32,000 nucleotides of DNA from Longivirga aurantiaca (GCF_042660085.1 NZ_JBHSTI010000008.1:1050001-1082000), one strand, 5' to 3'. Numbered from the stretch's first letter, positions 3,088 to 28,579 are shown. The notes: generated by a model not told the origin, from the sequence alone. Translations and numbers: made by a program.

Positions 3088-3131
3088 CCGCTCGACCACC
3101 GCTCAGCTCGGTTTCGCACCAGGAGGCAGAC

Positions 3132-8186: not shown

Positions 8187-8391
8187 TCCGCGTTTCAGGG
8201 CCCCCACCAGAACCACGGCTCCTTCCCCTGCCGGTACGACCGCGCACGACCTGAAAGACCAGCAGGACCGCATACAGGAAGACCGCGAGAACACAGCAGT
8301 TCCAGGGCATATGGGCACTGCACCAGACGTTGAACAAGCAGGACTCGAACAAGCTCCCCACGGGGGATCGAGCCGGTCAGTGGAGGAACGC

Positions 8392-11262: not shown

Positions 11263-11370
11263 TGTCGTCGGTCATTCGATGTCCCGCTCACGCGGGCGCT
11301 GAATGACCACCCTCCGGTCAGCAATGTCCCGGAAACGGTCAATGTGACATTGCGACCATCAGGTCGGTAA

Positions 11371-11410
11371 GTGGGAGGCCTCCGCGAAGGAGGCCTCCCA
11401 CTTGCTTTCG
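11371..11410 (+). terminator. Rho-independent terminator (presumably nrdJ)
   Basis: Perfect 13-bp stem GTGGGAGGCCTCC-GCGAA-GGAGGCCTCCCAC, followed by TTGCTTTCG. Confidence 0.7.
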
Positions 11411-11489
11411 TGGCTGTCAGACGGCGCGGGGATGATCACTGGGAGCGGATCCTGGATAGCCTGGCCGCGACGGTGACAAGGGGGTCGAG

Positions 11490-14400
11490 GTGGACGACGG
11501 GACGCTTCCGGGCGCTTCGCAGGCAGAGGCGATTCTTCGGACCCGTCTGGAGGACATCACGCCTGGAGCCCGTATCGATGGAGTGACCGGGAGGGGCTCC
11601 GTCGAGGTCGTGTCGATCCGCTGGCACGGCTCGAACTTCATCACGCTGACCTACCGCGACGACCATGGTGCGACGAACCAGCAGGTCCTCGGCCGCGACC
11701 ATGAACCCGGCCTCCGGCTGGCGTCCTCGGGACCCAGTCACGCCTTCGACGGAGATGCCGACTCGTGGAGGTTGGCCGCGGAAGCTCTCCGCATCCGGTA
11801 CGCCGCTTTGTTCGACCCCATGCTGGCTGTCGTCACGAGCGACCTGGAGCCGCTGCCGCACCAGCTTCGGGCTGTCTACGGCGAGCTGCTCCCGAGGACG
11901 CCCCTTCGGTTCCTGCTCGCTGACGACCCCGGAGCAGGCAAGACGATCATGGCCGGGCTCTACATCAAGGAACTGATCCTCCGAGGGGATCTCGCTCGCT
12001 GCTTGATCGTGGCGCCGGGGTCGCTCGTTGAGCAGTGGCAGGACGAGCTGTACGAGAAGTTCGGCCTGCGCTTCGAGCTCCTCACCCGGTCGCTCATCGA
12101 CGAGGCCGTCGAGCGCAGCCCGTTCGATCAGCACCCCCTGCTGATCGCACGGATGGACCAGCTCTCCCGGAGCGACGACCTCGTCGCCCAGCTGGAACGC
12201 AGCGACTGGGACCTTGTCGTCGTCGATGAGGCGCACCGCATGTCGGCGCACTACTTCGGCCAGGAACTGAAGACGACCAAGCGATACCAGCTCGGGCTCG
12301 TGCTCGGTCGGGTCACCCGCCACCTGCTGCTGATGACCGCCACCCCGCACGCCGGCAAGCAGGAGGACTTCCAGCTCTTCCTCGCGCTGCTCGACGGAGA
12401 TCGGTTCGAGGGCCGCTTCCGCGACGGCGTCCACACGGTGGAGCCGGGCGACCTCATGCGCCGCATGGTCAAGGAGGAGCTCCTCACCATGGACGGCAAG
12501 CCGCTGTTCCCTGAGCGCCGCGCTTACACCGTCCCGTATGACCTCTCCGACTCCGAGAAGGACCTGTACGAAGCCGTCACCCAGTACGTGCGCGAGGAGA
12601 TGAACCGAGCGGAACGCCTCAAGGCCGAAGGTGAGGGTCGCCGCGGCAACCAGGTCGGCTTCGCACTCACGGTTCTGCAGCGCCGCCTTGCCTCGAGCCC
12701 CGAGGCGATCTTGCGCAGCCTCGAGCGCCGCAAGGCACGTCTCGAGGGCCGCCGACGCGAGATGGACGCGGCCGCCGCGCACGCCGAGGAGATCTCGCTG
12801 CGGCAACGCCTCGACGAGATCCTGGGCAGGGGCACCGACGAAGATCTAGAAGCCCGCCTCGATGACCTCCCGGGTGAGGAGCTCGAGGAGCTGGAGGAGA
12901 ACGTCGTCGACGCCGCGACGGCCGCCCGCACGGTCGCCGAGCTCGATGTTGAGATCGCCATGCTCGACGACCTTGTCGAGTTGGCTCGCCGAGTCCGCTG
13001 GTCCGGCACGGACAAGAAGTGGTCGGAGCTGCGCACCATCCTCACGGACTCAGACTTGACCGTCGACGAGTCCGGGAACCTGCGCAAGATCATCATCTTC
13101 ACCGAGCATCGCGACACACTGAACTACCTGGTCGACCAGATCCGCAGCCTGGTGGGGCGCGAGGAGGCTGTCCTCGCGATTCACGGAGGGATCCGCCGCG
13201 AAGAACGCCGCAAGGTTCAAGAGCTCTTCACGCAGGACAAGGACACCCTCGTCCTGGTGGCGACCGACGCGGCTGGCGAGGGACTGAACCTTCAGCGAGC
13301 GCACCTGATGGTCAACTATGACCTGCCGTGGAACCCCAACCGAATCGAGCAGCGCTTCGGCCGCATCCACCGCATCGGACAGACCGAGGTGTGCCACCTC
13401 TGGAACCTCTTGGCGGCCAACACACGTGAGGGCGAAGTGTTCCTCCGCCTCCTGGAGAAGATCGAGGAGCAGCGCCAGGCCTACCAGGGGCGCGTGTTCG
13501 ATGTCCTAGGCGACGCTTTCGAGGATCGGCCGTTGCGCCAGCTGCTCATCGACGCGATCCGCTACGGCGACCAGCCGGAGGTCCGAGAGCGCCTCAACAT
13601 GGTGATCGACGAGACAGTGAGCAAGGGCCTGGACGAGCTCATCGCCGAACGTGCGCTCTATCGCGAGGTGTTGGCCGAGGCGGACATCGAGGAGCTTCGA
13701 CGTCGCGTCGAGGAGGCGCAGGCCAGGCGCCTGCAGCCCCACTACGTCCAGGCCTTCTTCCTCGCCGCGTTCACGCGATTGGGAGGACGAATCACCGCCC
13801 GCGAGACCGGGCGCTACGAGATCACGCACGTGCCGGCTGACATCCGTGATCGGGATCGGCAGATTGGCGTAGGCGCTCCTGTCCTCAACCGGTACGAGCG
13901 TGTTGCTTTCGACAAGCCCTACGTCCGGCTGGGCCACGCCCCCCGCGCGGACCTCATCGCACCCGGACACCCCCTTGTCGACGCCGTCGTCGACCTCACC
14001 ATCGAACGCAACAACAACGCTCTCAAGCAAGGCGCTGTGCTTGTCGATCGTGACGACCCGGCTGAGTCGCCGCGTCTGCTCGTGGCCATGACGCAGGAGA
14101 TCTCGGATGGCCATGTGCCGGCGCGGGTGGTGTCCAAGCAGTTTCAGTTCGTCGAGATCGCGCCCGACGGAGATGCACGATCCGCTGGTCCTGCTCCGTA
14201 CCTCGACTACGAGGAGCTTCGCGAGGAAGAGAGGCCGGCGGTCGCGGCGGCACTGGCCGACGCATGGCTCGCTGCGGGCGTCGAGGACGTCGCGGTGTCG
14301 TGGGCGATCGAACACGCACTCCCCGAGCACCAACGCGATGTAGAGGCTCGCGTCCTGCCACTGGTCGCACGCACCCGCGACCATGTGCGTCACCGACTGA

Positions 14401-15059
14401 CGAGCGAGATCAACTACTGGGACACCCGCCACGCCGAGCTCCTCGACCAAGAGGCGGCCGGCCGCCAGCTTCGAATCCGGCCTGAGACCGCCTATCGTCG
14501 CGCGCGCGACCTTGAGGGGCGCTTGTCGCGTCGTCTGGTTGACCTAGATGCCGATGGGCACTTGGCCGTGGCCCCTCCGTACGTTGTAGGTGGTGCGCTC
14601 GTCTTGCCCCAGGGCTTGATCGATCGTGCGCTCGGCCGTCGATCCGCCCCCGAAGCCACCTACGCCAGAGACACCGCTGTGATCGAACGTCGGGCGGTCG
14701 ACGCCGTTCTCGCCGCTGAACGAACGCTGGGGCGACGTCCCGAGGAGATGGCACACAACCACCCAGGGTGGGACATCCGGTCTCAGGCGGCTGACGGCAG
14801 TGTGGTGAAGATCGAGGTCAAAGGCCGCATCGCTGGCGCGGATGATTTCACCATCACGATGAACGAAGTGCTCACCGCCAAGAACCTCGGCGACGACTAC
14901 CGCCTGGCCCTCGTCGAAGTGAGTCCTGACGGCCCCATCCATGACCGCCTGAGATACCTGACCCGTCCCTTCGAAACGACCGGTACCGACGATTTCAGTG
15001 TCAAGCGCTACGTGATGAACTGGGACGCCCGATGGTCGACGGGAACCGCACCACACTGA
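11490..15059 (+). CDS. SNF2-family helicase with C-terminal DUF3883-type PD-(D/E)xK nuclease-like domain
   Basis: ORF 11490..15059. GTG start with AAGGGGG 5 nt upstream. Helicase motifs: I LLADDPGAGKTIMAG, II VVVDEAH, III LLMTATPHAGK, V ATDAAGEGLNLQ, VI NRIEQRFGRIHRIGQ. The C-terminus (HPGWDIRS...VVKIEVKGR) has a D...ExK pattern typical of DUF3883. Confidence 0.9.
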   Translation: MDDGTLPGASQAEAILRTRLEDITPGARIDGVTGRGSVEVVSIRWHGSNFITLTYRDDHGATNQQVLGRDHEPGLRLASSGPSHAFDGDADSWRLAAEALRIRYAALFDPMLAVVTSDLEPLPHQLRAVYGELLPRTPLRFLLADDPGAGKTIMAGLYIKELILRGDLARCLIVAPGSLVEQWQDELYEKFGLRFELLTRSLIDEAVERSPFDQHPLLIARMDQLSRSDDLVAQLERSDWDLVVVDEAHRMSAHYFGQELKTTKRYQLGLVLGRVTRHLLLMTATPHAGKQEDFQLFLALLDGDRFEGRFRDGVHTVEPGDLMRRMVKEELLTMDGKPLFPERRAYTVPYDLSDSEKDLYEAVTQYVREEMNRAERLKAEGEGRRGNQVGFALTVLQRRLASSPEAILRSLERRKARLEGRRREMDAAAAHAEEISLRQRLDEILGRGTDEDLEARLDDLPGEELEELEENVVDAATAARTVAELDVEIAMLDDLVELARRVRWSGTDKKWSELRTILTDSDLTVDESGNLRKIIIFTEHRDTLNYLVDQIRSLVGREEAVLAIHGGIRREERRKVQELFTQDKDTLVLVATDAAGEGLNLQRAHLMVNYDLPWNPNRIEQRFGRIHRIGQTEVCHLWNLLAANTREGEVFLRLLEKIEEQRQAYQGRVFDVLGDAFEDRPLRQLLIDAIRYGDQPEVRERLNMVIDETVSKGLDELIAERALYREVLAEADIEELRRRVEEAQARRLQPHYVQAFFLAAFTRLGGRITARETGRYEITHVPADIRDRDRQIGVGAPVLNRYERVAFDKPYVRLGHAPRADLIAPGHPLVDAVVDLTIERNNNALKQGAVLVDRDDPAESPRLLVAMTQEISDGHVPARVVSKQFQFVEIAPDGDARSAGPAPYLDYEELREEERPAVAAALADAWLAAGVEDVAVSWAIEHALPEHQRDVEARVLPLVARTRDHVRHRLTSEINYWDTRHAELLDQEAAGRQLRIRPETAYRRARDLEGRLSRRLVDLDADGHLAVAPPYVVGGALVLPQGLIDRALGRRSAPEATYARDTAVIERRAVDAVLAAERTLGRRPEEMAHNHPGWDIRSQAADGSVVKIEVKGRIAGADDFTITMNEVLTAKNLGDDYRLALVEVSPDGPIHDRLRYLTRPFETTGTDDFSVKRYVMNWDARWSTGTAPH

Positions 15060-15075
15060 TGCAGAGAGAAGTCAC

Positions 15076-17880
15076 GTGAGCACCGTCAAGCGCAAGCTGA
15101 TCGAGGTCGCCCTGCCGCTGGAGGCCATCAACCGCGAGTCCGCGCGCGAGAAGTCCATCCGTCACGGTCACCCTTCCACCCTTCATCTCTGGTGGGCCCG
15201 ACGACCGCTTGCCGCTGCGCGGGCCGTACTATTCGCGCAACTCGTTGATGACCCCTCTGCGCGGCCGGCTGAGTTCCCCACAGACGAAGCTCAGGCCGTG
15301 GAGCGCAAACGCCTCTTCGGCATCATCGAGAGACTTGTTGACTGGGACAACATCAACGACGAATCGCTGTTCCGAGAGGCACGTCAGGAAATCCTCAGGT
15401 CAACTGGCGGTCGTCCGCCGACGATCCTTGACCCCTTCGCCGGCGGAGGTTCCATTCCCCTGGAAGCTCAGCGACTTGGCTTGGAGGCGCATGCCTCGGA
15501 TCTCAATCCAGTCGCGGTGCTGATCAACCGAGCGCTTATCGAGATCCCGCCGTTGTGGTCGGGTGTGCCCCCAGTCTTCCCTGGGGCGTCCGACTCCCGC
15601 ATGGGCGCGTGGACTGGCACTACCGGTCTCGCGGAGGATGTCCGGCGGTACGGCCAATGGATGCGCGACGAAGCGGAACGCCGGATCGGGCACCTGTACC
15701 CGAAGGCGAAACTCGGCGACGGCACTGAGGCGAATGTCATCGCCTGGATTTGGGCACGGACGATCACCTGCCCGAACCCTGCCTGCGGCATCGAGATGCC
15801 GCTGGCGCGGTCCTGGTGGCTGGGTAAGAAGAAGGGCAAGGAAGCCTTCGTCGTACCCGAGGTCGTGACGAAGAGCGATGGAACGCGCCGCGTCGAGTTC
15901 GCTATTGGCCATGACGTGCATGCTGGCCCCTCGGGCGCTGCCGATGGGACGGTGACGCGCACCGGTGCCGTCTGCGTGGCATGCGGCACCGGCGTGCCAC
16001 TCTCATACGTGCGCGACGAAGGCAAGTCTGGTCGAATCGGCACTCGACTCATGGCCATAGTTGCCGAGGGTGATCGTCGTCGCCTGTATCTCCCACCTAC
16101 GCCCGAGCAGGAATCGGCAGCGGACGTGGCCGTACCTGCGGATGTACCTGAAACGGACTTGCCCGATGCTGCCTTGGGGTTTCGCGTTCAGGGCTACGGG
16201 ATGCGACGCCACGTGGATCTGTTCACAGCGCGTCAGCTCACAGCGATGACGACTTTCAGCGACTTGATCGGCGAGGCCCGCGAGCGTGTGCTTGCTGACG
16301 CCACCGCACACGGCATGACACAAGATGATCGGAGCCTTGAGGTCGGCGGAACGGGTTCGGCCGCCTACGCCGACAGTGTTGCTGTGTACCTGGCATTGGT
16401 CCTTGGGAAGGTAGCCGATATTGGCAACGCACTTGTGAGCTGGAAGCCGAGCATGGATCAGGCGATTCATCTCTTCACCCGCCAAGCCATCCCGATGTTG
16501 TGGGACTTCTCCGAGACCCCGGTCCTCAGTGATCGACATGCCGGCGGATACACAGTGTCGTTGGGGAACGTCGCGAAGGCGATTCCTAACGTGCCGCCCG
16601 GGTCGCATCGCGGGCATGTCACCCAAGCAGATGCCGCGAAGCGTTCGTACGAATCGGTTCTAGTCGCTACCGACCCGCCCTACTACGACAACGTGGGGTA
16701 CGCGGACCTCTCCGACTTCTTCTATGTTTGGCTCCGGCGTTCCCTGCTCGGGATTCTTCCCACCACCCTTGCCACAATGCTGACTCCGAAGGCGGACGAG
16801 CTTGTGGCTGAACCCTTTCGGCATGGTGGTGCTGCCTCTGCAGAGCGCTTCTTCGAGGAGGGGTTCCGGGACGTCTTCGCTCATATTCGCAAGGACACGC
16901 CCAACGACCTCCCAATCACAGTGTTCTACGCGTTCAAGCAGTCGGACACGGATGTTGAGGGCGTCGCTAGCACGGGATGGCAGACGCTGCTCGAGGGAAT
17001 GCTCAGTTCCGGTTGGGAGGTCACTGCGACATGGCCGGTGCGAACGGAACTGGGTAACCGAATGCGGAGTATTGATTCCAATGCGTTGGCGTCCTCCATT
17101 GTTCTGGCATGTCGGCCGAGGTCGGCTTCCGCTGAGGCGGTTACACGACGTGCCTTCATCGCCAGGCTGAAGGAGGAACTCCCTGCTTCGTTGCGCGTGC
17201 TCCAGCAGGGCAGCGTGGCACCGGTGGATCTGGCGCAGGCTGCCATCGGGCCCGGCATGGCTGTGTTCTCGCGGTACACCAAGGTCGTTGAAGCGGATGG
17301 CTCCGACATGTCCGTCCGCACGGCACTTGCCCTGATCAACCAGGTTCTCGACGAAGTGCTGACGGAGCAGGAAGGTGACTTCGATGCCGACACCCGATTC
17401 TGCGTGAAGTGGTTCACCCAGTTCGGGTGGAATGAGGGCACCTCGGGCGAGGCGGATGTTCTCGCTCGCGCCACGAACACGTCCGTCGAGGGACTTGCCC
17501 GAGGCGGCGTCTTCAAGGCTGTTGCGGGGAAGGCACGGCTGTTGGGCCCAACCGACCTGGCTGAGGACTGGGACCCGATGGCGGATGATCGGGTCAGCGA
17601 TTGGGAGGTTGCGATTCGGCTGGCTAAGGCGCTTAGCGAGCAGGGTATGGAACGGGCGGCCGCACTTATGGCAACTGCTGGTGCGCGACGTGATCTGGAT
17701 ACGGTCAAGGAGCTCGCCTACCTGCTCTTCAGCCTGTCGGAGAAGAAGGGCTGGACGCAGACAGCCGTCCTGTTCAACGGCCTCGGAACCGCCTGGAACG
17801 ACGTGGAGAATGCCGCGCGAACCGCTGCCGGCCGGCAGGTTGTGGCCCAAGATGAGTTGACGTTTGACGACGAGAACTGA
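15076..17880 (+). CDS. DUF1156-type DNA methyltransferase (DPPY amino-methyltransferase, N6-A or N4-C)
   Basis: ORF 15076..17880. GTG start 16 nt after the upstream stop codon. The N-terminus KLIEVALPLEAINRESAREKSIRHGHPSTLHLWWARRPLAAARAV is characteristic of DUF1156. SAM motif I is DPFAGGGSIPLEA (aa 119-). Motif IV is TDPPYYDNVGY (aa 532-). Confidence 0.9.
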   Translation: MSTVKRKLIEVALPLEAINRESAREKSIRHGHPSTLHLWWARRPLAAARAVLFAQLVDDPSARPAEFPTDEAQAVERKRLFGIIERLVDWDNINDESLFREARQEILRSTGGRPPTILDPFAGGGSIPLEAQRLGLEAHASDLNPVAVLINRALIEIPPLWSGVPPVFPGASDSRMGAWTGTTGLAEDVRRYGQWMRDEAERRIGHLYPKAKLGDGTEANVIAWIWARTITCPNPACGIEMPLARSWWLGKKKGKEAFVVPEVVTKSDGTRRVEFAIGHDVHAGPSGAADGTVTRTGAVCVACGTGVPLSYVRDEGKSGRIGTRLMAIVAEGDRRRLYLPPTPEQESAADVAVPADVPETDLPDAALGFRVQGYGMRRHVDLFTARQLTAMTTFSDLIGEARERVLADATAHGMTQDDRSLEVGGTGSAAYADSVAVYLALVLGKVADIGNALVSWKPSMDQAIHLFTRQAIPMLWDFSETPVLSDRHAGGYTVSLGNVAKAIPNVPPGSHRGHVTQADAAKRSYESVLVATDPPYYDNVGYADLSDFFYVWLRRSLLGILPTTLATMLTPKADELVAEPFRHGGAASAERFFEEGFRDVFAHIRKDTPNDLPITVFYAFKQSDTDVEGVASTGWQTLLEGMLSSGWEVTATWPVRTELGNRMRSIDSNALASSIVLACRPRSASAEAVTRRAFIARLKEELPASLRVLQQGSVAPVDLAQAAIGPGMAVFSRYTKVVEADGSDMSVRTALALINQVLDEVLTEQEGDFDADTRFCVKWFTQFGWNEGTSGEADVLARATNTSVEGLARGGVFKAVAGKARLLGPTDLAEDWDPMADDRVSDWEVAIRLAKALSEQGMERAAALMATAGARRDLDTVKELAYLLFSLSEKKGWTQTAVLFNGLGTAWNDVENAARTAAGRQVVAQDELTFDDEN

Positions 17881-17891
17881 CGGGACAGACC

Positions 17892-20800
17892 ATGGCATTG
17901 AGTAACCGCGATCGAGTTGGTCGCGGCTTTGAGCTCCTAGCCGAAGGGCTTGAGCCTTTCGTCGACCCCCGCATGTCGCGTGCCGCTGGGACTGTGGGCG
18001 AAGACTGGGCGAAGTTGCTGGAGGCTCGTGACGCTGCCAAGCATGGGTCTCGCAAGGTTTACGAGAAGAGCGACCCGCAGGTGCTGTTGCGCGTACTCAC
18101 GGAGGAGTGGCGGGTCTTCAAGGACGAGCTCTCGAGGGCGGATCAGACTTTCGCATCCGAGCTGCGGGCGACGCGAAACGACTGGGCCCACAACAAGCCC
18201 TTCTCCGGTGATGACACCTATCGTGCTCTGGACACGATGGAGCGTCTGCTGACGGCGGTCGGAGCGGTGTCGCAGGCGGATGAAGTTCGTCGGATCCGCG
18301 CTGACCACCAACGCTCCACGTTCGAGGCGGAGACGAAGCGGCTGGTGCGGTCGCAAGAGGCGACCGTGTCGGTGGCAGGGCAGGGGCTCAAGCCGTGGCG
18401 GGAGGTGCTGGCACCTCACGCTGACGTTGCGACGGGCAACTTCTCTGCCTCAGAGTTCGCCGCCGACCTGCACATGGTGGCTTTCGCAACGGGTGACCAG
18501 ACCGTCGGCGAAGAGTATGCCGACCCGCACCAGTTCTTCCGCCGAACCTTCTTGACCGAGGGCCTGCGCGAGCTGCTGGACCGCGCAGTCAGACGCATGA
18601 GTGGTGATGCCAATGCCAGCCCCATCATCAACCTGCAGACCAACTTCGGTGGCGGTAAGACCCACTCAATGCTTGCGTTGTGGCACCTCCTCTCCGGAGC
18701 ACAGGTCGGGTCGCTGACCCAGGAGGTACAGGATCTCGTTGCAGACCGTGCCTTGCCGCCGTCGGTGCGCCGGGTCGCGCTAGTCGGCACTCACATGTCT
18801 CCCGGAGCACCGACCATCAAGGCGGATGGCACGGAGGTGCGCACGCTCTGGGGCGAGCTGGCCTGGCAGCTGGGTGGTGCCGAAGCCTTCGCACTCGTCG
18901 CCGAGGCCGACGCAACGAGCACCAATCCAGGTGACGCGCTCCGGCAGCTGATCGCGTCGTACTCGCCGTGCCTGATCCTCATTGACGAATGGGTGGCCTA
19001 CGCCCGGCAGTTGTGGGGCCGGGAAGACCTACCGGCTGGCACGTTCGACACCCAGTTCACCTTCGCGCAGTCGCTGACCGAGGTAGTCAAGACGGTGCCC
19101 GGCGCCATGCTGGTTATCTCGATCCCCGCATCTCACGACCCCGACCGCGATAGCGGATCGAGTGGTTCAGCCATCGAGGTCGGCGGTCCGAACGGCCAGG
19201 AAGCCCTGCAGCGTCTGCAGAACGTGGTTCGTCGCGTCGCTGATCAATGGCGGCCGGCCAGCTCGCAGGAGTCGTTCGAGATCGTCCGCCGGCGCCTGTT
19301 CCAGGAACCGGATGCCCAGGCGCAGTCCGACATCAGCGCTGTGGCCCGGCAGTTCACCCAGTTCTACGCCCGGCACCCGGGGGAGTTCCCGCGCGAGGTC
19401 GTTGACCCGGCGTATGAGCAGCGGATCAAGGCTGCCTACCCTCTTCACCCGGAGCTGTTCGACCGGCTGTACGAGGACTGGTCGACCCTGGAGCGGTTCC
19501 AGCGCACCCGCGGAGTTCTGCGGCTGATGAGCTCGGTTGTACACGCTCTGTGGGTAGCTCAGGACGCGTCGCCGATGGTTCTTCCGGGAACTGTGCCGCT
19601 CGACGTGCCGACGGTGACGAGCGAGATCACGCAGTACCTGCCGGACTCGTGGAAGCCGATCATCGACACGGACATCGACGGGGCAGGATCGACTCCGGCG
19701 AAGATCGATGCCGAACGTCCGACGTTCGGCCAGCGGGCGCTGACCAGGCGTCTGGCGCGTGCGATCTTCATTGGTTCAGCACCTACGCTTCGCTCGGCTC
19801 ACCGAGGTGTGGAGCGGCAGCGGATCTGGCTGGGCACGGCGGTCCCTGGCGACACCGTCGGCAACTTCGGTTCAGCGATCGACTTGCTCTCGCAGCGGGC
19901 GACGTACCTCTATGTCGAAGGTGCCAGGTTCTGGTACGACACCCAGGCGTCGGTGACGCGCACTGCCGCTGACTACGCGGACGGTCTGCGCGATCGACCC
20001 GAAGAGGTGTGGAAGGAGATCGTGGATCGCCTCCGGGCGAGCGAGGCGAGGTACCGCGGCGGCTTCGCGGGCGTTCACGTGGCCCCGGACTCGACCGCAG
20101 AGATCCCAGACAGCGAAGACGTCCGCCTGGTCGTGCTGCATCCTTCGCAGCCCCACTCTCGGGGCTCTGGCGACTCGCCGGCGATGCTGTTCGCCACCGA
20201 CGCTTTCGAGCACCGGGGGACGAGCCAGCGCACGAACCGCAACATGCTGGTGTTCTTGGCACCGGACTCCAAGCGCCTTGACGAACTGCAGGAGGCTGCT
20301 CGCGACTACCTCGCGTGGTCCTGGGTGGCCGACAGGCAGGAGGAGCTCAACCTCTCGCCTCAGCAGGTCAAGCAGGTCGAGGCAAACAGCAAGCGGTCAG
20401 ATGAGGCCGTGACTGCTCGGATTGCCCAGGCCTATCACTGGGCCTTGGTACCCGAGCAGTCCGATCCCACGCGGCCGGCCACTATCGCGGTCGAGAAGGC
20501 GGACGGCGCGAACGAGCGTCTCGCCGAGCGGGTGACGGAGAAGCTGAACCGGTTGGCGCTGCTCGCCGGCTCAGTCGCGGCCCGAACGATCCGTCTCGAC
20601 CTCGATCAGAAGCTCAAGACGGTGTGGGATCGCGGGCACCTCTCTGTCGGCGACCTGTGGTCGTACTACTGCCGGTATCCCTACCTCACACGCCTTCGCG
20701 ATCGCACGGTTCTCGACGAAGGCGTTCGGTCGACACTGACCTGGATGACGTGGGAGACCGAGGGGTTTGCGCTCGCGGACTCGTACGACGAAGCGAGTGG

Positions 20801-21233
20801 TCGCTACATCGGGTTGGTCCTGCCGGGCGGCGACTCCTACTTCGGGCAGATCACCGACTCCACCTTGCTCGTCTCCCCAGAGGTGGCGGCGCGGCAGCTC
20901 GAGGAGATCGTGCCGCCTCAGCCGGCTCCGGTGGATCCGAACGATCCCGACGACCCGAACCCTGTCGTACCGACACCCCCCGTTCCTCCCGTGGCGTCGA
21001 ACACCCGCTTCTTCGGTGTGTTCTCGGTTGATCCGGAGCGGTACGGGCGTGACTTCACGAGACTCAGCCAGGAGGTCTTGCAGCAGCTCACTGCGGTTGA
21101 CGGTGTGGAGCTGGAGATCCAGGTGGAGATTCATGCCAGGCGTGCTGACGGGTTCCCGGACGACAAGGTGAGGACGGTTCTGGAGAACGCTCGGACCCTG
21201 CGCTTCGATCAATCGTCGTTCGAGGACCAGTAG
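17892..21233 (+). CDS. DUF499-family (BrxC/PglY-like) P-loop ATPase with N-terminal Swt1-like HEPN domain
   Basis: ORF 17892..21233. ATG 11 nt after the methyltransferase stop codon. The N-terminal ~140 aa carry an R-x4-H motif (ELRATRNDWAHNKPF). Walker A: NFGGGKTHSMLALWHL. Walker B: CLILIDEW. A Pro-rich linker precedes the conserved C-terminal module. Confidence 0.88.
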   Translation: MALSNRDRVGRGFELLAEGLEPFVDPRMSRAAGTVGEDWAKLLEARDAAKHGSRKVYEKSDPQVLLRVLTEEWRVFKDELSRADQTFASELRATRNDWAHNKPFSGDDTYRALDTMERLLTAVGAVSQADEVRRIRADHQRSTFEAETKRLVRSQEATVSVAGQGLKPWREVLAPHADVATGNFSASEFAADLHMVAFATGDQTVGEEYADPHQFFRRTFLTEGLRELLDRAVRRMSGDANASPIINLQTNFGGGKTHSMLALWHLLSGAQVGSLTQEVQDLVADRALPPSVRRVALVGTHMSPGAPTIKADGTEVRTLWGELAWQLGGAEAFALVAEADATSTNPGDALRQLIASYSPCLILIDEWVAYARQLWGREDLPAGTFDTQFTFAQSLTEVVKTVPGAMLVISIPASHDPDRDSGSSGSAIEVGGPNGQEALQRLQNVVRRVADQWRPASSQESFEIVRRRLFQEPDAQAQSDISAVARQFTQFYARHPGEFPREVVDPAYEQRIKAAYPLHPELFDRLYEDWSTLERFQRTRGVLRLMSSVVHALWVAQDASPMVLPGTVPLDVPTVTSEITQYLPDSWKPIIDTDIDGAGSTPAKIDAERPTFGQRALTRRLARAIFIGSAPTLRSAHRGVERQRIWLGTAVPGDTVGNFGSAIDLLSQRATYLYVEGARFWYDTQASVTRTAADYADGLRDRPEEVWKEIVDRLRASEARYRGGFAGVHVAPDSTAEIPDSEDVRLVVLHPSQPHSRGSGDSPAMLFATDAFEHRGTSQRTNRNMLVFLAPDSKRLDELQEAARDYLAWSWVADRQEELNLSPQQVKQVEANSKRSDEAVTARIAQAYHWALVPEQSDPTRPATIAVEKADGANERLAERVTEKLNRLALLAGSVAARTIRLDLDQKLKTVWDRGHLSVGDLWSYYCRYPYLTRLRDRTVLDEGVRSTLTWMTWETEGFALADSYDEASGRYIGLVLPGGDSYFGQITDSTLLVSPEVAARQLEEIVPPQPAPVDPNDPDDPNPVVPTPPVPPVASNTRFFGVFSVDPERYGRDFTRLSQEVLQQLTAVDGVELEIQVEIHARRADGFPDDKVRTVLENARTLRFDQSSFEDQ

Positions 21234-21238
21234 GCGCG

Positions 21239-23416
21239 TTGCCCGAGAACGCGGTAACGCGCGAGGAGCTCAGGTCGCTCCTGGCGCGCGCACAGATGCT
21301 TGCCGCTCAGGCGGAGTCGATCACGTCCACCAGTGCGGGGTCCTCTCGCGAAGTCGCGGACGGCTATCGGGCTGTCGTCGCACGCATGGTGGCTCGTGAG
21401 CTCGGCTCGATACCTGTGGCGAGACTCAGGGATGTCACGGAGGGTCGGCTGCGTCTGGGGCCGATCGAGTCGCGCTACAAGACGGTCGCTCAGCTGCAGA
21501 ATGTGTCCGCCTACACCCTCATGCAACTTCCTGGCGTCGGCGAGGCTACTGCTAGTCAGGTTGTAGCGGCCGTCCACACGGTGGCTCGCACGGTGGAGGA
21601 CGGGTTCCGGCTGCGCATCGACCTGGACGCGAGCGACCCAGTCACGACCGATCTGTTGCGTTCGACGTGGCGCTACGACTCGGTGACGCGGGCGGTGGCC
21701 CCGGTTAGGGAGCCGGCCGGGCGGATGAGCAACGAACTCGAACGTCTCGCCGTCGAGGCGAAGCCGGCTGGCTACGGCGCACTGCGCAGCTTGTTCACCA
21801 GCCGTGCGAAGAAGGACGGCGCCCGCGCCGCGGTGGAGCGCATCGAGCAGTGGATGCGGTGGAGCGACAGCCCTGCTAACGCAGCCGCGTGGACAGGAGC
21901 CATTGCCGCGATCCAGGCTCCGACACCTTCGGCTGCCGACGCTTGGAGAGCCTTCGAGACGCGATCGCCGGAGTTCTACGGCGCCTTGGGTGAGGTGGTC
22001 GATCTCCGGCTCGACGTCGGCTCGGCACAGGGCTTCTTGCCAGCGGAGATCGTCGCGAAGGTGGAGGAGCAGCTGCTCGATACGTCGATGCTCAAGGTGA
22101 GTCTGCGCGGCTACCAGTCGTTCGGCGCGCGCTTCGCGCTGGTCCAGAGGAAGGTGATCATCGGCGACGAGATGGGTCTCGGCAAGACGATCCAGGCGCT
22201 GGCCGTCATGACGCATCTTGCTTCGTCCGGCAAGGCGCACTTCCTCGTCGTGTGCCCTGCCAGCGTCCTGGTGAACTGGATCCGCGAGATCCGTACCCGA
22301 TCCGATCTTCAGGCCTACCAGTTGCATGGCCCGGACACGGCGCGTCAGCAGGGCCTGTGGACGCAGCGAGGTGGCGTGGCGGTCACCACGTTCGAGGGCC
22401 TGCGGCGGCTGTCGCTGCGTGAAGTTCCCCTGCTGGTCGTCGATGAGGCCCACTTCGTGAAGAACCCGACGGCGCAGCGCTCCCAGCTGGTCGCCTCCTG
22501 GATCGCGGGCGCAGAGCGAACGCTGTTCCTGACCGGTACTCCGATGGAGAACCGGGTCGAGGAGTTCCAGAACCTCGTCCGCTACCTGCAACCTCAAGTC
22601 GCGAACAGGGTGAATCCGTCGCACGGGCTGGCGGGAGCTGACGCCTTCCGCCGGGCGGTCGCGCCGGTCTACTTGCGCCGCAATCAGGACGACGTGCTCA
22701 TGGAGCTCCCCGACCTGATGTCGGTGGAGGAATGGGAGTCCTTCGGGCCGTCGGAAGCTGCTTCCTACCGGGATGCCGTCATGGGTGGCAACTTCATGGC
22801 GATGCGCCGAGCTGCCTTCGACGCGGTGCCGGTCACCGCGGCGACCAAGATGGCACGGCTGCTCGAGCTGTGCGACGAAGCGGCCGCGAACGGGCACAAG
22901 GTCCTCGTCTTCTCCTTCTTCCGCGACGTGCTGGACAAGGTGGCCGAGTCACTCGGGTCGCGAGCGCACGGACCATTGACGGGGAGCGTGCCGGCGGCGA
23001 AGCGCCAGGCGGTTGTCGATGGTTTCACCGCGGCCTCATCGGATGCGGTCCTTGTCGCGCAGATCCAGGCCGGTGGAGTCGGGCTCAACGTCCAGGCAGC
23101 GAACATCGTGATTCTGTGCGAGCCGCAAGTGAAGCCCTCGGCGGAGGCGCAAGCCATCGCGCGCGCGCACCGCATGGGTCAGGTCAGGAAGGTCCAGGTG
23201 CACCGTCTCCTTGTCGAGAACAGCGTCGACCAGCGAATGCTGGAGATCCTCGGAGCGAAGCAGGCGTTGTTCGACGAGTACGCGGCCAAGAGCGATCTGG
23301 CATCCGCCACCCCCGACGCGGTCGACATCTCCGAGACCGAGCTCGCGAAGACCATCGTCGCGGCAGAGCAGGAGCGCCTTGCTCGCGAGCTCATGGAGCA
23401 GCAGGCTTTGCAGTGA
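21239..23416 (+). CDS. Second SNF2-family helicase with helix-hairpin-helix-containing N-terminal region
   Basis: ORF 21239..23416. TTG start 5 nt after the upstream stop codon. Motifs: I IGDEMGLGKTIQAL, II LVVDEAHFVKN, III LFLTGTPMENR, V AGGVGLNVQ, VI AQAIARAHRMGQ. The N-terminal ~290 aa include LMQLPGVGEATASQVVAAV (HhH-like). Confidence 0.9.
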   Translation: MPENAVTREELRSLLARAQMLAAQAESITSTSAGSSREVADGYRAVVARMVARELGSIPVARLRDVTEGRLRLGPIESRYKTVAQLQNVSAYTLMQLPGVGEATASQVVAAVHTVARTVEDGFRLRIDLDASDPVTTDLLRSTWRYDSVTRAVAPVREPAGRMSNELERLAVEAKPAGYGALRSLFTSRAKKDGARAAVERIEQWMRWSDSPANAAAWTGAIAAIQAPTPSAADAWRAFETRSPEFYGALGEVVDLRLDVGSAQGFLPAEIVAKVEEQLLDTSMLKVSLRGYQSFGARFALVQRKVIIGDEMGLGKTIQALAVMTHLASSGKAHFLVVCPASVLVNWIREIRTRSDLQAYQLHGPDTARQQGLWTQRGGVAVTTFEGLRRLSLREVPLLVVDEAHFVKNPTAQRSQLVASWIAGAERTLFLTGTPMENRVEEFQNLVRYLQPQVANRVNPSHGLAGADAFRRAVAPVYLRRNQDDVLMELPDLMSVEEWESFGPSEAASYRDAVMGGNFMAMRRAAFDAVPVTAATKMARLLELCDEAAANGHKVLVFSFFRDVLDKVAESLGSRAHGPLTGSVPAAKRQAVVDGFTAASSDAVLVAQIQAGGVGLNVQAANIVILCEPQVKPSAEAQAIARAHRMGQVRKVQVHRLLVENSVDQRMLEILGAKQALFDEYAAKSDLASATPDAVDISETELAKTIVAAEQERLARELMEQQALQ

Positions 23417-23425
23417 CCCGCCGCA

Positions 23426-23848
23426 CTAGGGCGTCAAGTCTGCGTTGGCGGCTTTGGTCAGCCTGATGGGTCGTCCGCCCGCGACGGTGACTAGGCCTCG
23501 CCGGACCAGCGCCGGAAGAACCAGTTCACGATCAGGGCCGGACAGTGAACGGCGCACGTCCTCTCCGAGTTGTATCCGCCGCAGAAGCCGAGCCTGAGCC
23601 GTGGTGAGCTCCGAGGCTTCCGGCTCGTCCGCAGTGCCCGCGATCGTCACCTCAGCAAGCAGGTCCCGGGGGTGAACTCCCAACGCTTCGCACATGTGGG
23701 CGAGGTGTCGCAGCGTCAGGTTTCCGTCATCCCCGCCAGCTTCGATGCGCCGGATGACCTGGAAGTTGACGCCTGTGAAGTACGCGAGCCGGCGCTGTGA
23801 GAGTCCCCGCTCGGTGCGCAGCCGGGCCACCAGTTCCGCGTTGATCAT
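23426..23848 (-). CDS. XRE-family helix-turn-helix protein
   Basis: ORF 23426..23848(-). N-terminus: LVARLRTERGLSQRRLAYFTGVNFQVIRRIEAG (HTH_3 pattern). Its start overlaps the upstream stop codon (ATGA). Confidence 0.8.
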   Translation of the reverse strand: MINAELVARLRTERGLSQRRLAYFTGVNFQVIRRIEAGGDDGNLTLRHLAHMCEALGVHPRDLLAEVTIAGTADEPEASELTTAQARLLRRIQLGEDVRRSLSGPDRELVLPALVRRGLVTVAGGRPIRLTKAANADLTP

Positions 23849-25011
23849 GGGAGCGCCGTGGCCGTGATGCCGAGGCGTGAAAGCCAGCGGCGGGGATGGA
23901 CGTGCCGATCAGCCCTGCGGCCGTGGACGCAGATCCCGAAGTCGAGGGACGCTTGGTTGAGGGCTGTGGACACGGCTCGGTCGCTGAGTGGGAGCAACTT
24001 GTCCTTGCCCTCGGCCCCCGATCGTCGGCGCAGGTCGGTCTGGGCCTTGGCGGCGCGCGCGGTGTTGTCGAGAAGGGGCACCGTGCGATGGGCGCCCAGC
24101 CGAAGGCCGTCGGGAGCCACATCGTCAAGGGTGAGGGCGAGCATCTGGAGGATCCCTACCTGCTGGGCGGCCAGGGCTACGACGATGGCGCGGTGAGGTT
24201 GCCGGTAGCCGACGAGGTCCTCGTCGATCGTGATCGGGTCGACCAGCTGGCGTTCGCTGCTGCACAGCAGTACCGGCGTGTCGGTCTTCAAGTAGATGTC
24301 GTGGTGCCAGGCGGCAAGCTGGAGCGCGCGGATACCGATCACGAGTGCGTCGTCGTGTGGCGCGGTTCCGGTGACCCATTCGACGAGGTTGGCGAGGACG
24401 TCGATGGTGGCGCCGTCTCGGTCTAGCGTGTCGTCGCAGTGCGCCCAGGTATGGCCGAAGTGCGCTTCGACCGCTCGATAGGTCTCTGAGTCTGTGCTCG
24501 CCTCGAGGGTTGTACGGAATCGGTCGAACGGGATACGCGATGCGTCATCGAGCCCGAAGCCCAGGCGTACGCCCGTGGCAGGTTGGCGCATGCTGGGTTG
24601 CGGGACGTCGGAGTAGCGCATGGGGTGCGCCTTCGCTCGCGCGAGGATCCGCTCGAAGTTGTCCGAACGGGGTGGCCGGTGGAGGAGCCAGAGCGGTAGG
24701 GACGCGGCCTTGGCGAGGGCGACGAGATGCCCGAGGGTGAGCCTGGTGAGGTTCTGTGCATCCAGTGCCACGAGGGCAGAGATGTCGTAGGCGTCGAGCC
24801 AGGCCAGCGCGAGGGCGACGTCCTGGTTCTCGTTGCGGCCCTTCCCCGCGACGTCCCGGCGCTTGCCCAGCGCGGACAGCATGTCGCCAGCGATGACGGC
24901 GGACCGTTTGAGGTTGGGTCGGATGTCGAACCACAACGCTGCCCCCGGGCTGGGGAGCCCGAGGGGCAGCGCGGTGGCGACGCCGGTCACGTCGACATGG
25001 TGGGTAGCCAC
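23845..25011 (-). CDS. Hypothetical transposition-accessory protein (N-terminal degenerate TniB/AAA+-like region)
   Basis: ORF 23845..25011(-), GTG start. It occupies the position taken by TniQ/TnsD in this kind of operon. MLSALGKRRDV...ALALAWLDAYDISALVALDAQNL resembles the TniB-family ILxALG...hhhhD(E)xHNL segment, but I see no P-loop. Confidence 0.7.
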   Translation of the reverse strand: MATHHVDVTGVATALPLGLPSPGAALWFDIRPNLKRSAVIAGDMLSALGKRRDVAGKGRNENQDVALALAWLDAYDISALVALDAQNLTRLTLGHLVALAKAASLPLWLLHRPPRSDNFERILARAKAHPMRYSDVPQPSMRQPATGVRLGFGLDDASRIPFDRFRTTLEASTDSETYRAVEAHFGHTWAHCDDTLDRDGATIDVLANLVEWVTGTAPHDDALVIGIRALQLAAWHHDIYLKTDTPVLLCSSERQLVDPITIDEDLVGYRQPHRAIVVALAAQQVGILQMLALTLDDVAPDGLRLGAHRTVPLLDNTARAAKAQTDLRRRSGAEGKDKLLPLSDRAVSTALNQASLDFGICVHGRRADRHVHPRRWLSRLGITATALP

Positions 25012-25012
25012 G

Positions 25013-25792
25013 TCACTTCTTCGGCTTGGGCCTGGGGTATGGGGGCATCAGCGCGGTGGCGGCCCTGGCCAGCGACAGGTCGATCTCAGGAGGAGTGGCG
25101 TCGGGGTCGAGGGCGTGGGTGAGTTCGAGGGTGTGCTGGAGGAAGATCCCCCAGCGGCGGAGGAGCCCGAAGCAGTAGTCCTGATCGATGAGCTTGAGCA
25201 GCTTCGGATCGCTGATGCCGAAGCTGGCGTGCATTCCACGCAGTGCGCGGATCAGGTCATCACCCTTGAGGGCCTGTACGTCGACGGTGGCGATGATGTC
25301 GCCGCGAAGTCGGGCGCTGGTGGTGCTGGCCCGGTCTAGGTCGTCGGAACCGAGCAGGACCAGGGACCAGTTGGCTCCGGGTCGTGCGTGCAGGTACTGC
25401 AGCTGGCTTGCGGCCTTGGTGGTCAGTTCCTGAGCCTGATCGATGACGAGGATGCTCGACTCGTGCCCGAGGGCGTCCACGAGGTCATCCTGCATGTCGC
25501 GGAGTTCGTACTCGTCGCGGTCCCCGAGAACCGCGTCGATGAGGACGGCCATGAGCTTGTTCTCCGACGGGGCGGGCGGCATCGCGACGAAGCTGTATGG
25601 GTGCTGCTGGTCGCTCAGCGCGGCCGCCAGGGCGATGCGCTTGCCGGCGCCCCGTGGCCCGGCGACGACCATGGTGCCGCCGTGGCGAGCGGTGAACCCG
25701 AGGCGTGCTCGGATCTCGGTTGTGGCCGGATGCGGTACGACCGTCGCCACGCCTCGAAGACCGACGGGGAGGTACCGGTCGAGGGCGTTCAT
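25013..25792 (-). CDS. TniB/TnsC/MuB-like AAA+ transposition ATPase
   Basis: C-terminal 259 codons of ORF 25013..26848(-). The ATG at 25792 overlaps the transposase stop codon (ATGA). Walker A: VAGPRGAGKR. Walker B-like: SSILVIDQAQEL. Confidence 0.8.
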   Translation of the reverse strand: MNALDRYLPVGLRGVATVVPHPATTEIRARLGFTARHGGTMVVAGPRGAGKRIALAAALSDQQHPYSFVAMPPAPSENKLMAVLIDAVLGDRDEYELRDMQDDLVDALGHESSILVIDQAQELTTKAASQLQYLHARPGANWSLVLLGSDDLDRASTTSARLRGDIIATVDVQALKGDDLIRALRGMHASFGISDPKLLKLIDQDYCFGLLRRWGIFLQHTLELTHALDPDATPPEIDLSLARAATALMPPYPRPKPKK

Positions 25793-27312: not shown

Positions 27313-27466
27313 GGGTCTGGTCCTTCGCTATGCGGGTTGCGGCGGGCAGCGTGGGGGAGCGACTGCTCGCAGCTGACGTGACTGATCGTCGGCGGATCGC
27401 GGCCGGTGGCTTCAGCCCGTCGCCGAGCGGTGTGCGGGCGTTGATGTTCCGTTGGGGCCGGCTGCG

Positions 27467-27940: not shown

Positions 27941-28000
27941 GCACCCCGACAGTCAGCCCCTGCACCCGGGCTGCAGCCGGCTCCGCCCGCTGCGAGGGTG

Positions 28001-28573: not shown

Positions 28574-28579
28574 CTGCGG

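What the first reader, a model, noticed from the sequence alone, without database searches (positions are those of the whole stretch)
11490..23416. Four-gene helicase / DUF1156 methyltransferase / HEPN-DUF499 ATPase / second SNF2 helicase operon: candidate poorly characterised BREX/DISARM-like defence system
Four long plus-strand genes are packed with 16-, 11- and 5-nt gaps, about 12 kb in total.
- Gene 1: SNF2 helicase fused to a DUF3883-type D...ExK nuclease-like domain.
- Gene 2: DUF1156 DPPY methyltransferase.
- Gene 3: DUF499 P-loop ATPase (the family of BREX BrxC/PglY) with an N-terminal HEPN domain.
- Gene 4: a second SNF2 helicase, comparable in type to DISARM DrmD.

The operon has no PglZ, BrxA/B, DrmA/B/C or classical type I-III R-M subunits, so it is neither BREX nor DISARM as defined. 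From memory, the DUF1156/DUF499/SNF2-DUF3883 neighbourhood was noted in comparative-genomic work on HEPN domains, and was proposed as a putative helicase-methylase-ATPase ('Hma') system in the PADLOC paper. I know of no mechanistic study. The extra SNF2 gene may define an undescribed 4-gene variant.

Hypothesis (inference): the methyltransferase marks self DNA, the ATPase/HEPN protein senses or licenses, and the SNF2-nuclease translocates on and cuts unmodified DNA.
Basis: partly seen in the sequence, partly recalled or inferred. Interest (0 to 1): 0.88.

Follow-up and report, generated by a model that had tools for sequence, protein, structure and literature searches.

The report
Known Hma defence operon plus extra helicase
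The four genes are real, but three of them form an already described anti-phage system (Hma, also called Type-1 BREX-related). Only the fourth gene, a second nuclease-less helicase that recurs beside Hma in actinobacteria, appears not to have been described as a partner.

Summary
**Observation: confirmed.** Four co-directional ORFs (11490-15059, 15076-17880, 17892-21233, 21239-23416) lie 16, 11 and 5 nt apart, and every domain call holds.

**Genes 1-3.** They are full-length matches to PADLOC HmaA, HmaB and HmaC (1501, 1118 and 901 bits).
- This is the Hma system of Payne 2021. Rakesh & Krishnan 2026 renamed it the Type-1 BREX-related (BR) system, and its HEPN-fused ATPase variant is reported in 1370 taxa.
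- HmaA alone blocks phage T4 and is a nickase (Liu 2024).
- The sister Type-2 system, MANTIS, was dissected mechanistically in 2026.

**Gene 4.** It is a catalytically intact SNF2 translocase with a weak helix-hairpin-helix (HhH) match and no nuclease.
- 78 of the 80 best genomic homologues sit alone, without Hma.
- It nevertheless recurs beside Hma in Actinomycetota in three arrangements: co-directional after hmaC (6 of 7 closest metagenomic Hma loci, plus Arthrobacter and Pseudonocardiaceae), divergent before hmaA (Arthrobacter and Rhodococcus plasmids), or convergent.
- Its divergence tracks that of HmaC (r = 0.78).
- I found no description of this partnership.

**Verdict.** This is an ordinary member of a known system carrying a probably undescribed, facultative accessory helicase. 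Interest is modest.

The parts
11490..15059 (+). hmaA: SNF2 helicase fused to a C-terminal PD-(D/E)xK nuclease (1189 aa)
   Evidence: PADLOC HmaA 1501 bits, covering residues 19-1164 of the protein and positions 3-1150 of the 1176-position profile. Pfam domains, motifs.
11859..13379 (+). hmaA SNF2 ATPase core (residues 124-630)
   Evidence: Pfam ResIII/SNF2-rel_dom/Helicase_C. GAGKT, DEAH and QRFGRIHRIGQ are present.
14682..14936 (+). hmaA NOV_C/DUF3883 nuclease domain (residues 1065-1149), with D1095, E1109, K1111 and E1126
   Evidence: Pfam NOV_C 7e-19. The residues correspond to D1084/E1104/K1106/E1121, which are required for defence and nicking in Halomonas HmaA (PMC11232893; sequence).
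15076..17880 (+). hmaB: DUF1156 N6-adenine DNA methyltransferase (934 aa)
   Evidence: PADLOC HmaB 1118 bits. Pfam DUF1156 8e-31. DPFAGGG and DPPY motifs.
15839..16662 (+). hmaB variable cassette, presumed to be the target-recognition region
   Evidence: No blastn match to the close relative L002, although the flanks are 83% and 77% identical. Protein identity here is 32-56%, against 94% for HmaA and HmaC. GC is the lowest of the window just downstream, in the 16-17 kb bin (0.607).
17892..21233 (+). hmaC: HEPN-fused DUF499 (ORC/Cdc6-type AAA+) ATPase (1113 aa)
   Evidence: PADLOC HmaC 901 bits. Pfam HEPN_Swt1 6e-36 and DUF499 1e-24.
17922..18263 (+). hmaC N-terminal HEPN RNase domain (residues 11-124) with R95-x4-H100
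   Evidence: The motif appears and is invariant in four homologues.
21239..23416 (+). Gene 4: nuclease-less SNF2 translocase with a weak HhH match (725 aa); accessory partner of Hma
   Evidence: Pfam SNF2-rel_dom 4e-29 and Helicase_C 1.5e-15, with HHH_5 weak and below threshold. PADLOC DrmD model PDLC02627 546 bits, but NCBIfam DrmD models far below cut-off. The AF2 model has an SNF2 remodeller fold, and no nuclease family was detected. Conserved next to Hma.
21473..21571 (+). Gene 4 helix-hairpin-helix motif (residues 79-111; LPGVGE)
   Evidence: Pfam HHH_5/HHH, weak. The G-V-G motif is conserved in the 21-sequence alignment.
22139..23179 (+). Gene 4 SNF2 ATPase core (residues 301-647)
11371..11401 (+). 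G+C-rich hairpin followed by a partly T-rich stretch (TTGCTTTCG), downstream of nrdJ; left boundary of the operon's upstream region
   Evidence: Read directly from the sequence. The terminator scan did not report it.
23426..27312 (-). Context: convergent HTH gene, then a transposition module (388-aa unknown, AAA_22 ATPase, rve/Mu-type transposase)
   Evidence: Pfam. Weak PADLOC TnsB hit. The same block follows Hma plus gene 4 in L001 and L002.

Best explanation
**What it is.** Genes 1-3 are an Hma system, which is the same thing as a Type-1 BREX-related (BR) restriction-modification-like anti-phage system. This copy is the variant whose ATPase carries an N-terminal HEPN RNase. It lies in a horizontally mobile island of *Longivirga aurantiaca*, downstream of nrdJ and next to transposition genes and McrBC.

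**How it probably works.** The model is inferred by homology with MANTIS and with Halomonas HmaA; nothing has been shown for this locus.
1. HmaC, an ORC/Cdc6-type AAA+ ATPase, loads the DUF1156 methyltransferase HmaB onto DNA.
2. HmaB methylates adenine in a short motif set by its variable middle region, and this marks self DNA.
3. On unmethylated invading DNA, the HmaB-HmaC complex licenses HmaA. HmaA is an SNF2 translocase whose C-terminal PD-(D/E)xK domain nicks or cuts the DNA.
4. The HEPN domain is a back-up RNase that acts if restriction fails.

**Gene 4.** It is a separate, catalytically intact SNF2 double-strand-DNA translocase with a weak HhH match and no nuclease. It is probably co-transcribed with hmaC, and it is a recurrent, co-diverging but dispensable neighbour of Hma in Actinomycetota. 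I infer, at about 50% probability, that it works with Hma as an accessory second motor, much as DISARM and Dpd systems pair a nuclease-less SNF2 protein with other components. The alternative is that it acts independently.
For: **Identity of the core.**
- Full-length PADLOC hits to HmaA, HmaB and HmaC: 1501, 1118 and 901 bits.
- Pfam domains confirm each architecture, and all catalytic motifs are intact.
- The three genes are tightly packed and co-directional.

**Literature.**
- Definition of Hma (PMC8565338).
- Type-1 BR description, with the HEPN variant in 1370 taxa and the published mechanistic model (PMC12839542).
- HmaA alone defends against T4 through its nuclease residues (PMC11232893).
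- In MANTIS the DUF499 ATPase loads the methyltransferase, and a helicase-nuclease is required for restriction.

**Specificity variation.** The middle region of HmaB is replaced relative to a relative whose HmaA and HmaC are 94% identical.

**Gene 4 linkage.**
- It lies directly after hmaC in L001-L006, where it is 53-74% identical. In Arthrobacter sp. UYEF21 the gap is 4 nt and the flanks are different.
- It is present in 6 of 7 metagenomic loci whose HmaC is at least 68% identical to the window's.
- It is divergent upstream of hmaA on *Arthrobacter* sp. Rue61a plasmid p232 and on a *Rhodococcus qingshengii* plasmid, and also in L121 and L134.
- It is convergent downstream of hmaC in L140 and L147.
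- Pairwise identities of HmaC and gene 4 across 11 loci correlate at r = 0.78.
- It is not a duplicate of HmaA: identity is only 27-30%, confined to the motor motifs.

**Mobile context.**
Against: - No experiment exists for this locus or for any four-gene version.
- In the Halomonas work only HmaA was shown to act. The requirement for HmaB and HmaC, and methylation itself, are extrapolated from MANTIS, which uses a different nuclease and an extra protein (MtsB) that is absent here.
- 78 of the 80 best genomic homologues of gene 4 have no Hma within 10 kb and share no conserved neighbour.
- Only about 9 of the roughly 50-60 more distant Hma loci with visible flanks carry gene 4.
- One close relative, L090, carries an internally deleted remnant of gene 4.
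- Gene 4 diverges faster than HmaA and HmaC: 74% against 94%.
- Monophyly of the Hma-linked gene-4 sequences is unstable, appearing in 27 of 50 bootstraps.
- Hma operons are known hotspots for unrelated embedded defence genes.
Confidence: 0.75

Rival explanations
1. Gene 4 is an autonomous single-gene module, either a solo SNF2 defence gene or a DNA-repair helicase. It merely rides in the Hma operon, in the way many unrelated defence genes are embedded in Hma loci, and it has no functional dependence on HmaABC.
For: - 78 of 80 genomic homologues are solo and sit in unrelated contexts.
- Solo copies occur on Rhodococcus, Lactobacillus and Aerococcus plasmids.
- Gene 4 is internally deleted in L090 while Hma is retained.
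- 62.7% of Hma loci carry embedded foreign genes, 96.7% of them in the same orientation.
- Gene 4 evolves faster than the Hma genes.
Against: - The association persists through three different gene arrangements and different flanking DNA.
- Gene 4 divergence tracks HmaC divergence, r = 0.78.
- The association is nearly universal in the closest Hma clade, 6 of 7 loci.
- The gaps to hmaC are only 4-5 nt.
Confidence: 0.35
2. The four genes together form a distinct, undescribed BREX/DISARM-like system that is separate from known families.
For: - The four-gene operon is tightly packed.
- Gene 4 hits a PADLOC DrmD model at 546 bits.
- The searched literature does not mention a second helicase.
Against: - Genes 1-3 are full-length, high-scoring Hma / Type-1 BR components.
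- That family is already defined, surveyed and classed as BREX-related.
- Most Hma loci lack gene 4.
- NCBIfam DrmD equivalogs are far below cut-off: 67.5 against 610, and 83 against 950.
- No DrmA, DrmB, DrmC or PglZ is present.
Confidence: 0.05
3. The cluster mainly serves the mobile element that carries it, as an addiction or stabilisation module or through epigenetic control, rather than defending against phage.
For: - It is adjacent to a transposition module that is conserved in L001 and L002.
- Homologous loci sit on conjugative or mobilisable plasmids and next to a TrwC relaxase.
- A methyltransferase paired with a nuclease can behave as a toxin-antitoxin pair, a view raised in PMC7641849.
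Against: - HmaA gives direct anti-phage activity.
- MANTIS restricts both phage and plasmids.
- The Hma DNA is better conserved than the transposition genes, 77-83% against 65-69%.
- No transposon ends enclosing Hma were found.
Confidence: 0.1

Closest known systems
Hma system (PADLOC; Payne et al. 2021), also called the Type-1 BREX-related (BR) system (Rakesh & Krishnan 2026), HEPN-fused DUF499 variant
   Same: All three components have the same domain architectures and gene order and give full-length profile matches. The HEPN fusion is the majority form, found in 1370 of 2446 taxa.
   Different: An extra SNF2 gene lies 5 nt after hmaC. It is not part of the published three-gene definition and is not mentioned in the papers I could search.
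MANTIS (Gao_RL; Type-2 BR system)
   Same: A DUF499 AAA+ ATPase, a DUF1156 adenine methyltransferase and a helicase-nuclease effector. It is the best available mechanistic template: ATPase-loaded hemimethylation followed by motor-nuclease restriction.
   Different: MANTIS uses an HKD/PLD nuclease and needs the small protein MtsB. Here the nuclease is a PD-(D/E)xK domain and there is no MtsB. The NCBIfam Type-2 models score far below their cut-offs.
DISARM class 1 (DrmD) and the Dpd system (DpdE)
   Same: Gene 4 is a nuclease-less SNF2 protein that matches the PADLOC DrmD model PDLC02627 (546 bits) and the DpdE model PDLC02852 (518 bits) over nearly its full length. It sits beside an adenine methyltransferase and a second helicase, as in DISARM.
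   Different: No DrmA, DrmB, DrmC or Dpd genes are present. The NCBIfam DrmD and DpdE equivalogs are not met.
Type-3 BREX (BrxC, PglXI, BrxHII, PglZ)
   Same: The ATPase, methyltransferase and SNF2 helicase are homologous, according to PMC12839542.
   Different: No PglZ or BrxA/B is present. The helicase here carries its own nuclease.

Membership tests
Hma / Type-1 BR system | SNF2 helicase fused to a C-terminal PD-(D/E)xK (NOV_C/DUF3883) nuclease (HmaA) | tested here: met
   PADLOC HmaA 1501 bits. Pfam SNF2-rel_dom, Helicase_C and NOV_C. D1095/E1109/K1111/E1126 are present.
Hma / Type-1 BR system | DUF1156-type N6-adenine DNA methyltransferase (HmaB) | tested here: met
   PADLOC HmaB 1118 bits. 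Pfam DUF1156 106 bits against a cut-off of 24. DPPY and FxGxG motifs are present.
Hma / Type-1 BR system | DUF499 ORC/Cdc6-like AAA+ ATPase (HmaC), often with an N-terminal HEPN domain | tested here: met
   PADLOC HmaC 901 bits. Pfam HEPN_Swt1 and DUF499. Walker A and B motifs and R-x4-H are present.
Hma / Type-1 BR system | The three genes are clustered on one strand, each present once | tested here: met
   ORF coordinates show gaps of 16 and 11 nt.
Hma / Type-1 BR system | Methylation of self DNA and restriction of phage or plasmid DNA | not testable with these tools
   Needs a methylome and infection assays.
BREX (types 1-6) | PglZ phosphatase/nuclease together with BrxA- and BrxB-like proteins | tested here: not met
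   No PglZ, DUF1819 or DUF1788 hit in the four proteins or in the 18 flanking ORFs scanned.
DISARM | DrmA and DrmB (DUF1998) plus DrmC (PLD) | tested here: not met
   None were found in the operon or its flanks.
DISARM | DrmD SNF2 helicase | tested here: inconclusive
   Gene 4 scores 546 bits on PADLOC DrmD model PDLC02627. On the NCBIfam models it scores 67.5 against a cut-off of 610 (DISARM_DrmD) and 83 against 950 (DrmD_b).
MANTIS / Type-2 BR | HKD/PLD-helicase effector and the small MtsB protein (DUF3780/DUF3870) | tested here: not met
   The phospholipD_antiphage model scores 167 bits against a cut-off of 1100. There is no room for a small extra gene between the ORFs.
Type-3 BR | Stand-alone PglZ, an inactive STAND protein, and a helicase without a nuclease | tested here: not met
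   HmaA keeps its nuclease. No PglZ was found.

The most novel reading that the evidence does not exclude
The HhH-SNF2 protein would be a genuine fourth subunit ('HmaD') of an actinobacterial Hma subtype. It would be a second DNA motor recruited by HmaB-HmaC and needed for restriction but not for methylation. For example, it could drive convergent translocation that turns HmaA nicks into double-strand breaks. The many solo homologues in Streptomyces and related genera would then be escaped descendants of this defence component.
Probability: 0.3. Interest if true: 0.5.

Novelty: new variant of a known kind. Interest (0 to 1): 0.3.

Why it matters
The three-gene core adds nothing new beyond one more member of a catalogued family. 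Two things are of some use.

**A possible fourth component.** Gene 4 is a stable, rearrangement-tolerant partner of Hma in actinobacteria. Current definitions (PADLOC's three-gene Hma, Type-1 BR) and the searched literature do not include it. If it is functional, Hma would join DISARM and Dpd as a system that pairs a nuclease-bearing motor with a nuclease-less SNF2 motor. That could help explain how a nickase effector achieves restriction.

**A natural specificity-swap pair.** The window and the metagenomic relative L002 share 94%-identical HmaA and HmaC but have a replaced HmaB middle region. This pair is ready-made material for mapping how the methyltransferase sets target specificity.

Tried and rejected
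- **Transposon cargo hypothesis.** I looked for terminal inverted repeats or repeated transposase-binding sites linking the nrdJ-hmaA spacer (11263-11489) to the region beyond the transposase. I used an inverted-repeat search, pattern searches and k-mer matching. Nothing exceeded chance, so the element's ends remain undefined.
- **RNA features.** Rfam and tRNA scans of the whole window found nothing, so no tRNA attachment site or riboswitch is involved.
- **Conserved partner for solo gene 4.** ORF conservation across 84 loci found no neighbour shared by more than about 16 loci. Three annotated solo contexts are unrelated to one another.
- **Fold of gene 4.** The AF2 model (pLDDT 80) and a Foldseek search against PDB returned only SNF2 remodellers. 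The helical N-terminal 280 residues gave no informative match.
- **Monophyly of Hma-linked gene 4.** It appeared in one neighbour-joining tree but was not robust: 29 of 60 and 27 of 50 bootstraps. I do not rely on it.
- **HTH gene as an Hma regulator.** The small convergent ORF in the Arthrobacter locus is unrelated to it. The HTH gene travels with the transposition module instead.
- **Supplement search.** Searching the supplements of PMC12839542 for these loci gave no hits.
- **One failed lookup.** Protein P0048 was not on record.

Full report
**1. The observation**

The window is high-GC DNA (0.61-0.74). Gene 4 is 100% identical to a protein of *Longivirga aurantiaca*, a member of Actinomycetota, order Sporichthyales.

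| Gene | Coordinates | Length | Gap to next gene |
|---|---|---|---|
| 1 | 11490-15059 | 1189 aa | 16 nt |
| 2 | 15076-17880 | 934 aa | 11 nt |
| 3 | 17892-21233 | 1113 aa | 5 nt |
| 4 | 21239-23416 | 725 aa | n/a |

- Pfam confirms every domain call. Gene 1 has SNF2, Helicase_C and NOV_C (DUF3883). Gene 2 has DUF1156. Gene 3 has HEPN_Swt1 and DUF499. Gene 4 has SNF2 and Helicase_C, plus a weak sub-threshold helix-hairpin-helix match.
- All catalytic motifs are intact.
- No terminator-like site lies between the genes on the + strand.
- The TTG start of gene 4 sits 5 nt after the hmaC stop, with a GAGGA upstream.

**2. What genes 1-3 are**

Against PADLOC-DB, genes 1-3 are full-length matches to HmaA (1501 bits), HmaB (1118 bits) and HmaC (901 bits). 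The published record on this system is as follows.

- Hma (helicase, methylase, ATPase) was named as a candidate system in the PADLOC paper, with 1,638 loci in 26 phyla (PMC8565338).
- The same neighbourhood had been noted in the 2013 HEPN survey (PMC3710099) and the 2020 EVE-domain survey (PMC7641849).
- Rakesh & Krishnan (2026, PMC12839542) reclassified it as the Type-1 'DUF499-centred BREX-related (BR)' system. They found it in 2,446 taxa, 1,370 of them with the HEPN-fused ATPase seen here.
- In *Halomonas meridiana*, HmaA alone blocks phage T4. This requires the PD-(D/E)xK residues D1084, E1104, K1106 and E1121, and the isolated domain nicks plasmid DNA (PMC11232893). The window's HmaA has the equivalent D1095, E1109, K1111 and E1126.
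- The sister Type-2 BR system, MANTIS, has been dissected (bioRxiv 10.64898/2026.09.23.753747). Its DUF499 AAA+ ATPase loads the methyltransferase. Short asymmetric sites are hemimethylated on adenine. A helicase-nuclease is required for restriction and is proposed to cut unmodified DNA, although its nuclease activity has not yet been measured directly.

So the core is a known system, and there is a partly experimental mechanistic framework for it.

**3. What it is not**

- No PglZ, BrxA/B or DrmA/B/C was found in the four proteins or in 18 flanking ORFs.
- The NCBIfam Type-2 BR models (DUF499_antiphage, DUF1156_antiphage, phospholipD_antiphage) score far below their cut-offs. This fits Type-1 rather than Type-2.

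**4. Gene 4**

*The protein.* Gene 4 is an SNF2 ATPase.
- Its best solved-structure relatives are the *Sulfolobus* Rad54-like protein and eukaryotic chromatin remodellers.
- The AF2 model has mean pLDDT 80, and Foldseek returns only SNF2 motors.
- The first roughly 280 residues are predicted as long helices plus an HhH motif (LPGVGE) that is conserved in 21 homologues.
- No nuclease domain is detected.
- It shares only 27-30% identity with HmaA, confined to the motor motifs, so it is not a duplicate of HmaA.
- It matches one PADLOC DrmD model (PDLC02627, 546 bits) and one DpdE model (PDLC02852, 518 bits) nearly end to end. It fails all NCBIfam equivalog cut-offs.

*Is it tied to Hma? Starting from gene 4:*
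- Of the 80 best genome loci holding a homologue (48-56% identity; mostly Streptomyces, Kitasatospora, Nonomuraea and Micromonosporaceae), 78 have no Hma gene within 10 kb.
- Those loci share no conserved neighbour.
- Most of the family therefore occurs solo.

*Starting from Hma:*
- Gene 4 lies directly after hmaC in two metagenomic relatives (74% identity).
- The same is true in Arthrobacter sp. UYEF21 (55% identity, 4-nt gap, with different flanks that include a TrwC relaxase).
- It is also true in a Pseudonocardiaceae MAG and a Mycobacteriales MAG.
- Among 80 metagenomic HEPN-HmaC loci, 6 of the 7 whose HmaC is at least 68% identical to the window's and which have room downstream carry gene 4. 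One of those six, L090, carries only an internally deleted remnant.
- In more distant Hma clades gene 4 appears in a minority of loci and in other arrangements. It is divergent upstream of hmaA in L121 and L134, on *Arthrobacter* sp. Rue61a plasmid p232 and on a *Rhodococcus qingshengii* plasmid. It is convergent downstream of hmaC in L140 and L147.
- Across 11 loci, pairwise identities of HmaC and gene 4 correlate at r = 0.78. The pairs are not independent, so this is descriptive only.

*Phylogeny.* A neighbour-joining tree grouped the co-directional Hma-linked copies together. Bootstrap support is only about 50%, so the phylogeny is unresolved.

*Overall.* Gene 4 is a recurrent, long-standing but dispensable neighbour of Hma in Actinomycetota. 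The association survives rearrangement, which is the classic signature of functional linkage. The solo majority, and the known tendency of Hma operons to host unrelated defence genes (62.7% of loci), keep the hitch-hiker alternative alive. The BR paper's main text does not mention a second helicase, HhH or DrmD, and the Hma-embedding study looked only at genes between the hma genes. The partnership therefore appears undescribed in the literature available to me.

**5. Context**

- *Upstream* lie housekeeping genes: lexA, a glycosyltransferase, a debranching-enzyme homologue and the class II ribonucleotide reductase nrdJ. A G+C-rich hairpin follows nrdJ at 11371-11401.
- *Downstream*, on the minus strand, lie an HTH gene, a 388-aa unknown, an AAA_22 ATPase and an rve/Mu-type transposase with a weak TnsB hit. 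Further on lies McrC.
- The same block follows Hma plus gene 4 in L001 and L002, but it is less conserved at the DNA level: 65-69% against 77-83% for Hma. I could not find transposon ends.
- *The HmaB swap.* Compared with L002, HmaA and HmaC are 94% identical, but the HmaB middle region (window 15839-16662) has no DNA match and is only 32-56% identical as protein. This pattern suggests exchange of a target-recognition cassette, and hence a different methylation motif. That reading is an inference.

**6. Mechanism, and which steps are shown**

- *Shown here:* gene content, intact motifs and conservation patterns.
- *Shown elsewhere for homologues:* HmaA anti-T4 activity and nicking, and ATPase-loaded hemimethylation in MANTIS. 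The motor-nuclease cleavage step in MANTIS is so far a working model rather than a measured activity.
- *Inferred for this locus:* HmaC loads HmaB. HmaB methylates adenine at a motif set by its variable region. Unmethylated sites bound by HmaB-HmaC license HmaA to translocate and cut. HEPN acts as a back-up RNase. Gene 4 serves as an accessory dsDNA translocase (about 50%) or is an independent passenger (about 35%).

**7. Verdict**

This is a correct and careful observation of a system that is already known and classified. Its one modestly new element is a facultative accessory SNF2 helicase that defines an actinobacterial four-gene variant of Hma. Interest is 0.3.

Noticed in passing
window 15839-16662 (hmaB residues ~255-530): The middle of HmaB looks like an exchanged cassette. 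It has no blastn match to the close relative L002, whose flanks are 77-83% identical and whose HmaA and HmaC are 94% identical as protein. The lowest GC of the window (0.607) is in the 16-17 kb bin just downstream. This probably reflects a switch in target-recognition specificity.
   Followed up: partly
window 23426-27312, minus strand: A transposition-type module: an HTH gene (23426-23848), a 388-aa protein with no family hit (23845-25011), an AAA_22 ATPase (about 25013-25780), and an rve plus Mu-transpos_C transposase (25789-27312; weak PADLOC TnsB hit). It is conserved beside Hma in L001 and L002. No terminal repeats were found, so it is unclear whether Hma is its cargo.
   Followed up: partly
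window 30689-31909, minus strand: A McrC homologue (Pfam McrBC, 4e-44) lies at the window edge. The syntenic locus L002 has McrB next to it, so a type IV restriction system probably continues beyond the window. That would make this a small defence island.
   Followed up: no
L090 13494-14069: A close Hma relative (HmaC 75% identical) retains only the two ends of the gene-4 homologue (residues ~50-105 and ~641-717). This is an internal deletion, and it shows that gene 4 can be lost while Hma is kept.
   Followed up: partly
window 27313-30688: About 3.4 kb between the transposase and McrC holds several overlapping ORFs on both strands (for example 27452-28663 +, 28281-28970 -, 29294-30280 +). None has a Pfam or PADLOC hit, so the true genes here are unresolved.
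   Followed up: partly
window 2115-3119 (-) and 8155-11262 (+): LexA lies at 2115-3119, listed as a 334-aa ORF whose domains start at residue 128, so the true start is probably further downstream. A class II ribonucleotide reductase, NrdJ, with a TSCPD domain lies at 8155-11262 and flanks the island. A G+C-rich hairpin at 11371-11401 follows nrdJ.
   Followed up: no
L165/L166 12228-15941 (Streptomyces sp. So13.3): A solo gene-4 homologue is convergent with a 1237-aa protein that combines a caspase-like Peptidase_C14 domain with AAA_11/AAA_12 helicase domains. This may be a defence gene.
   Followed up: no
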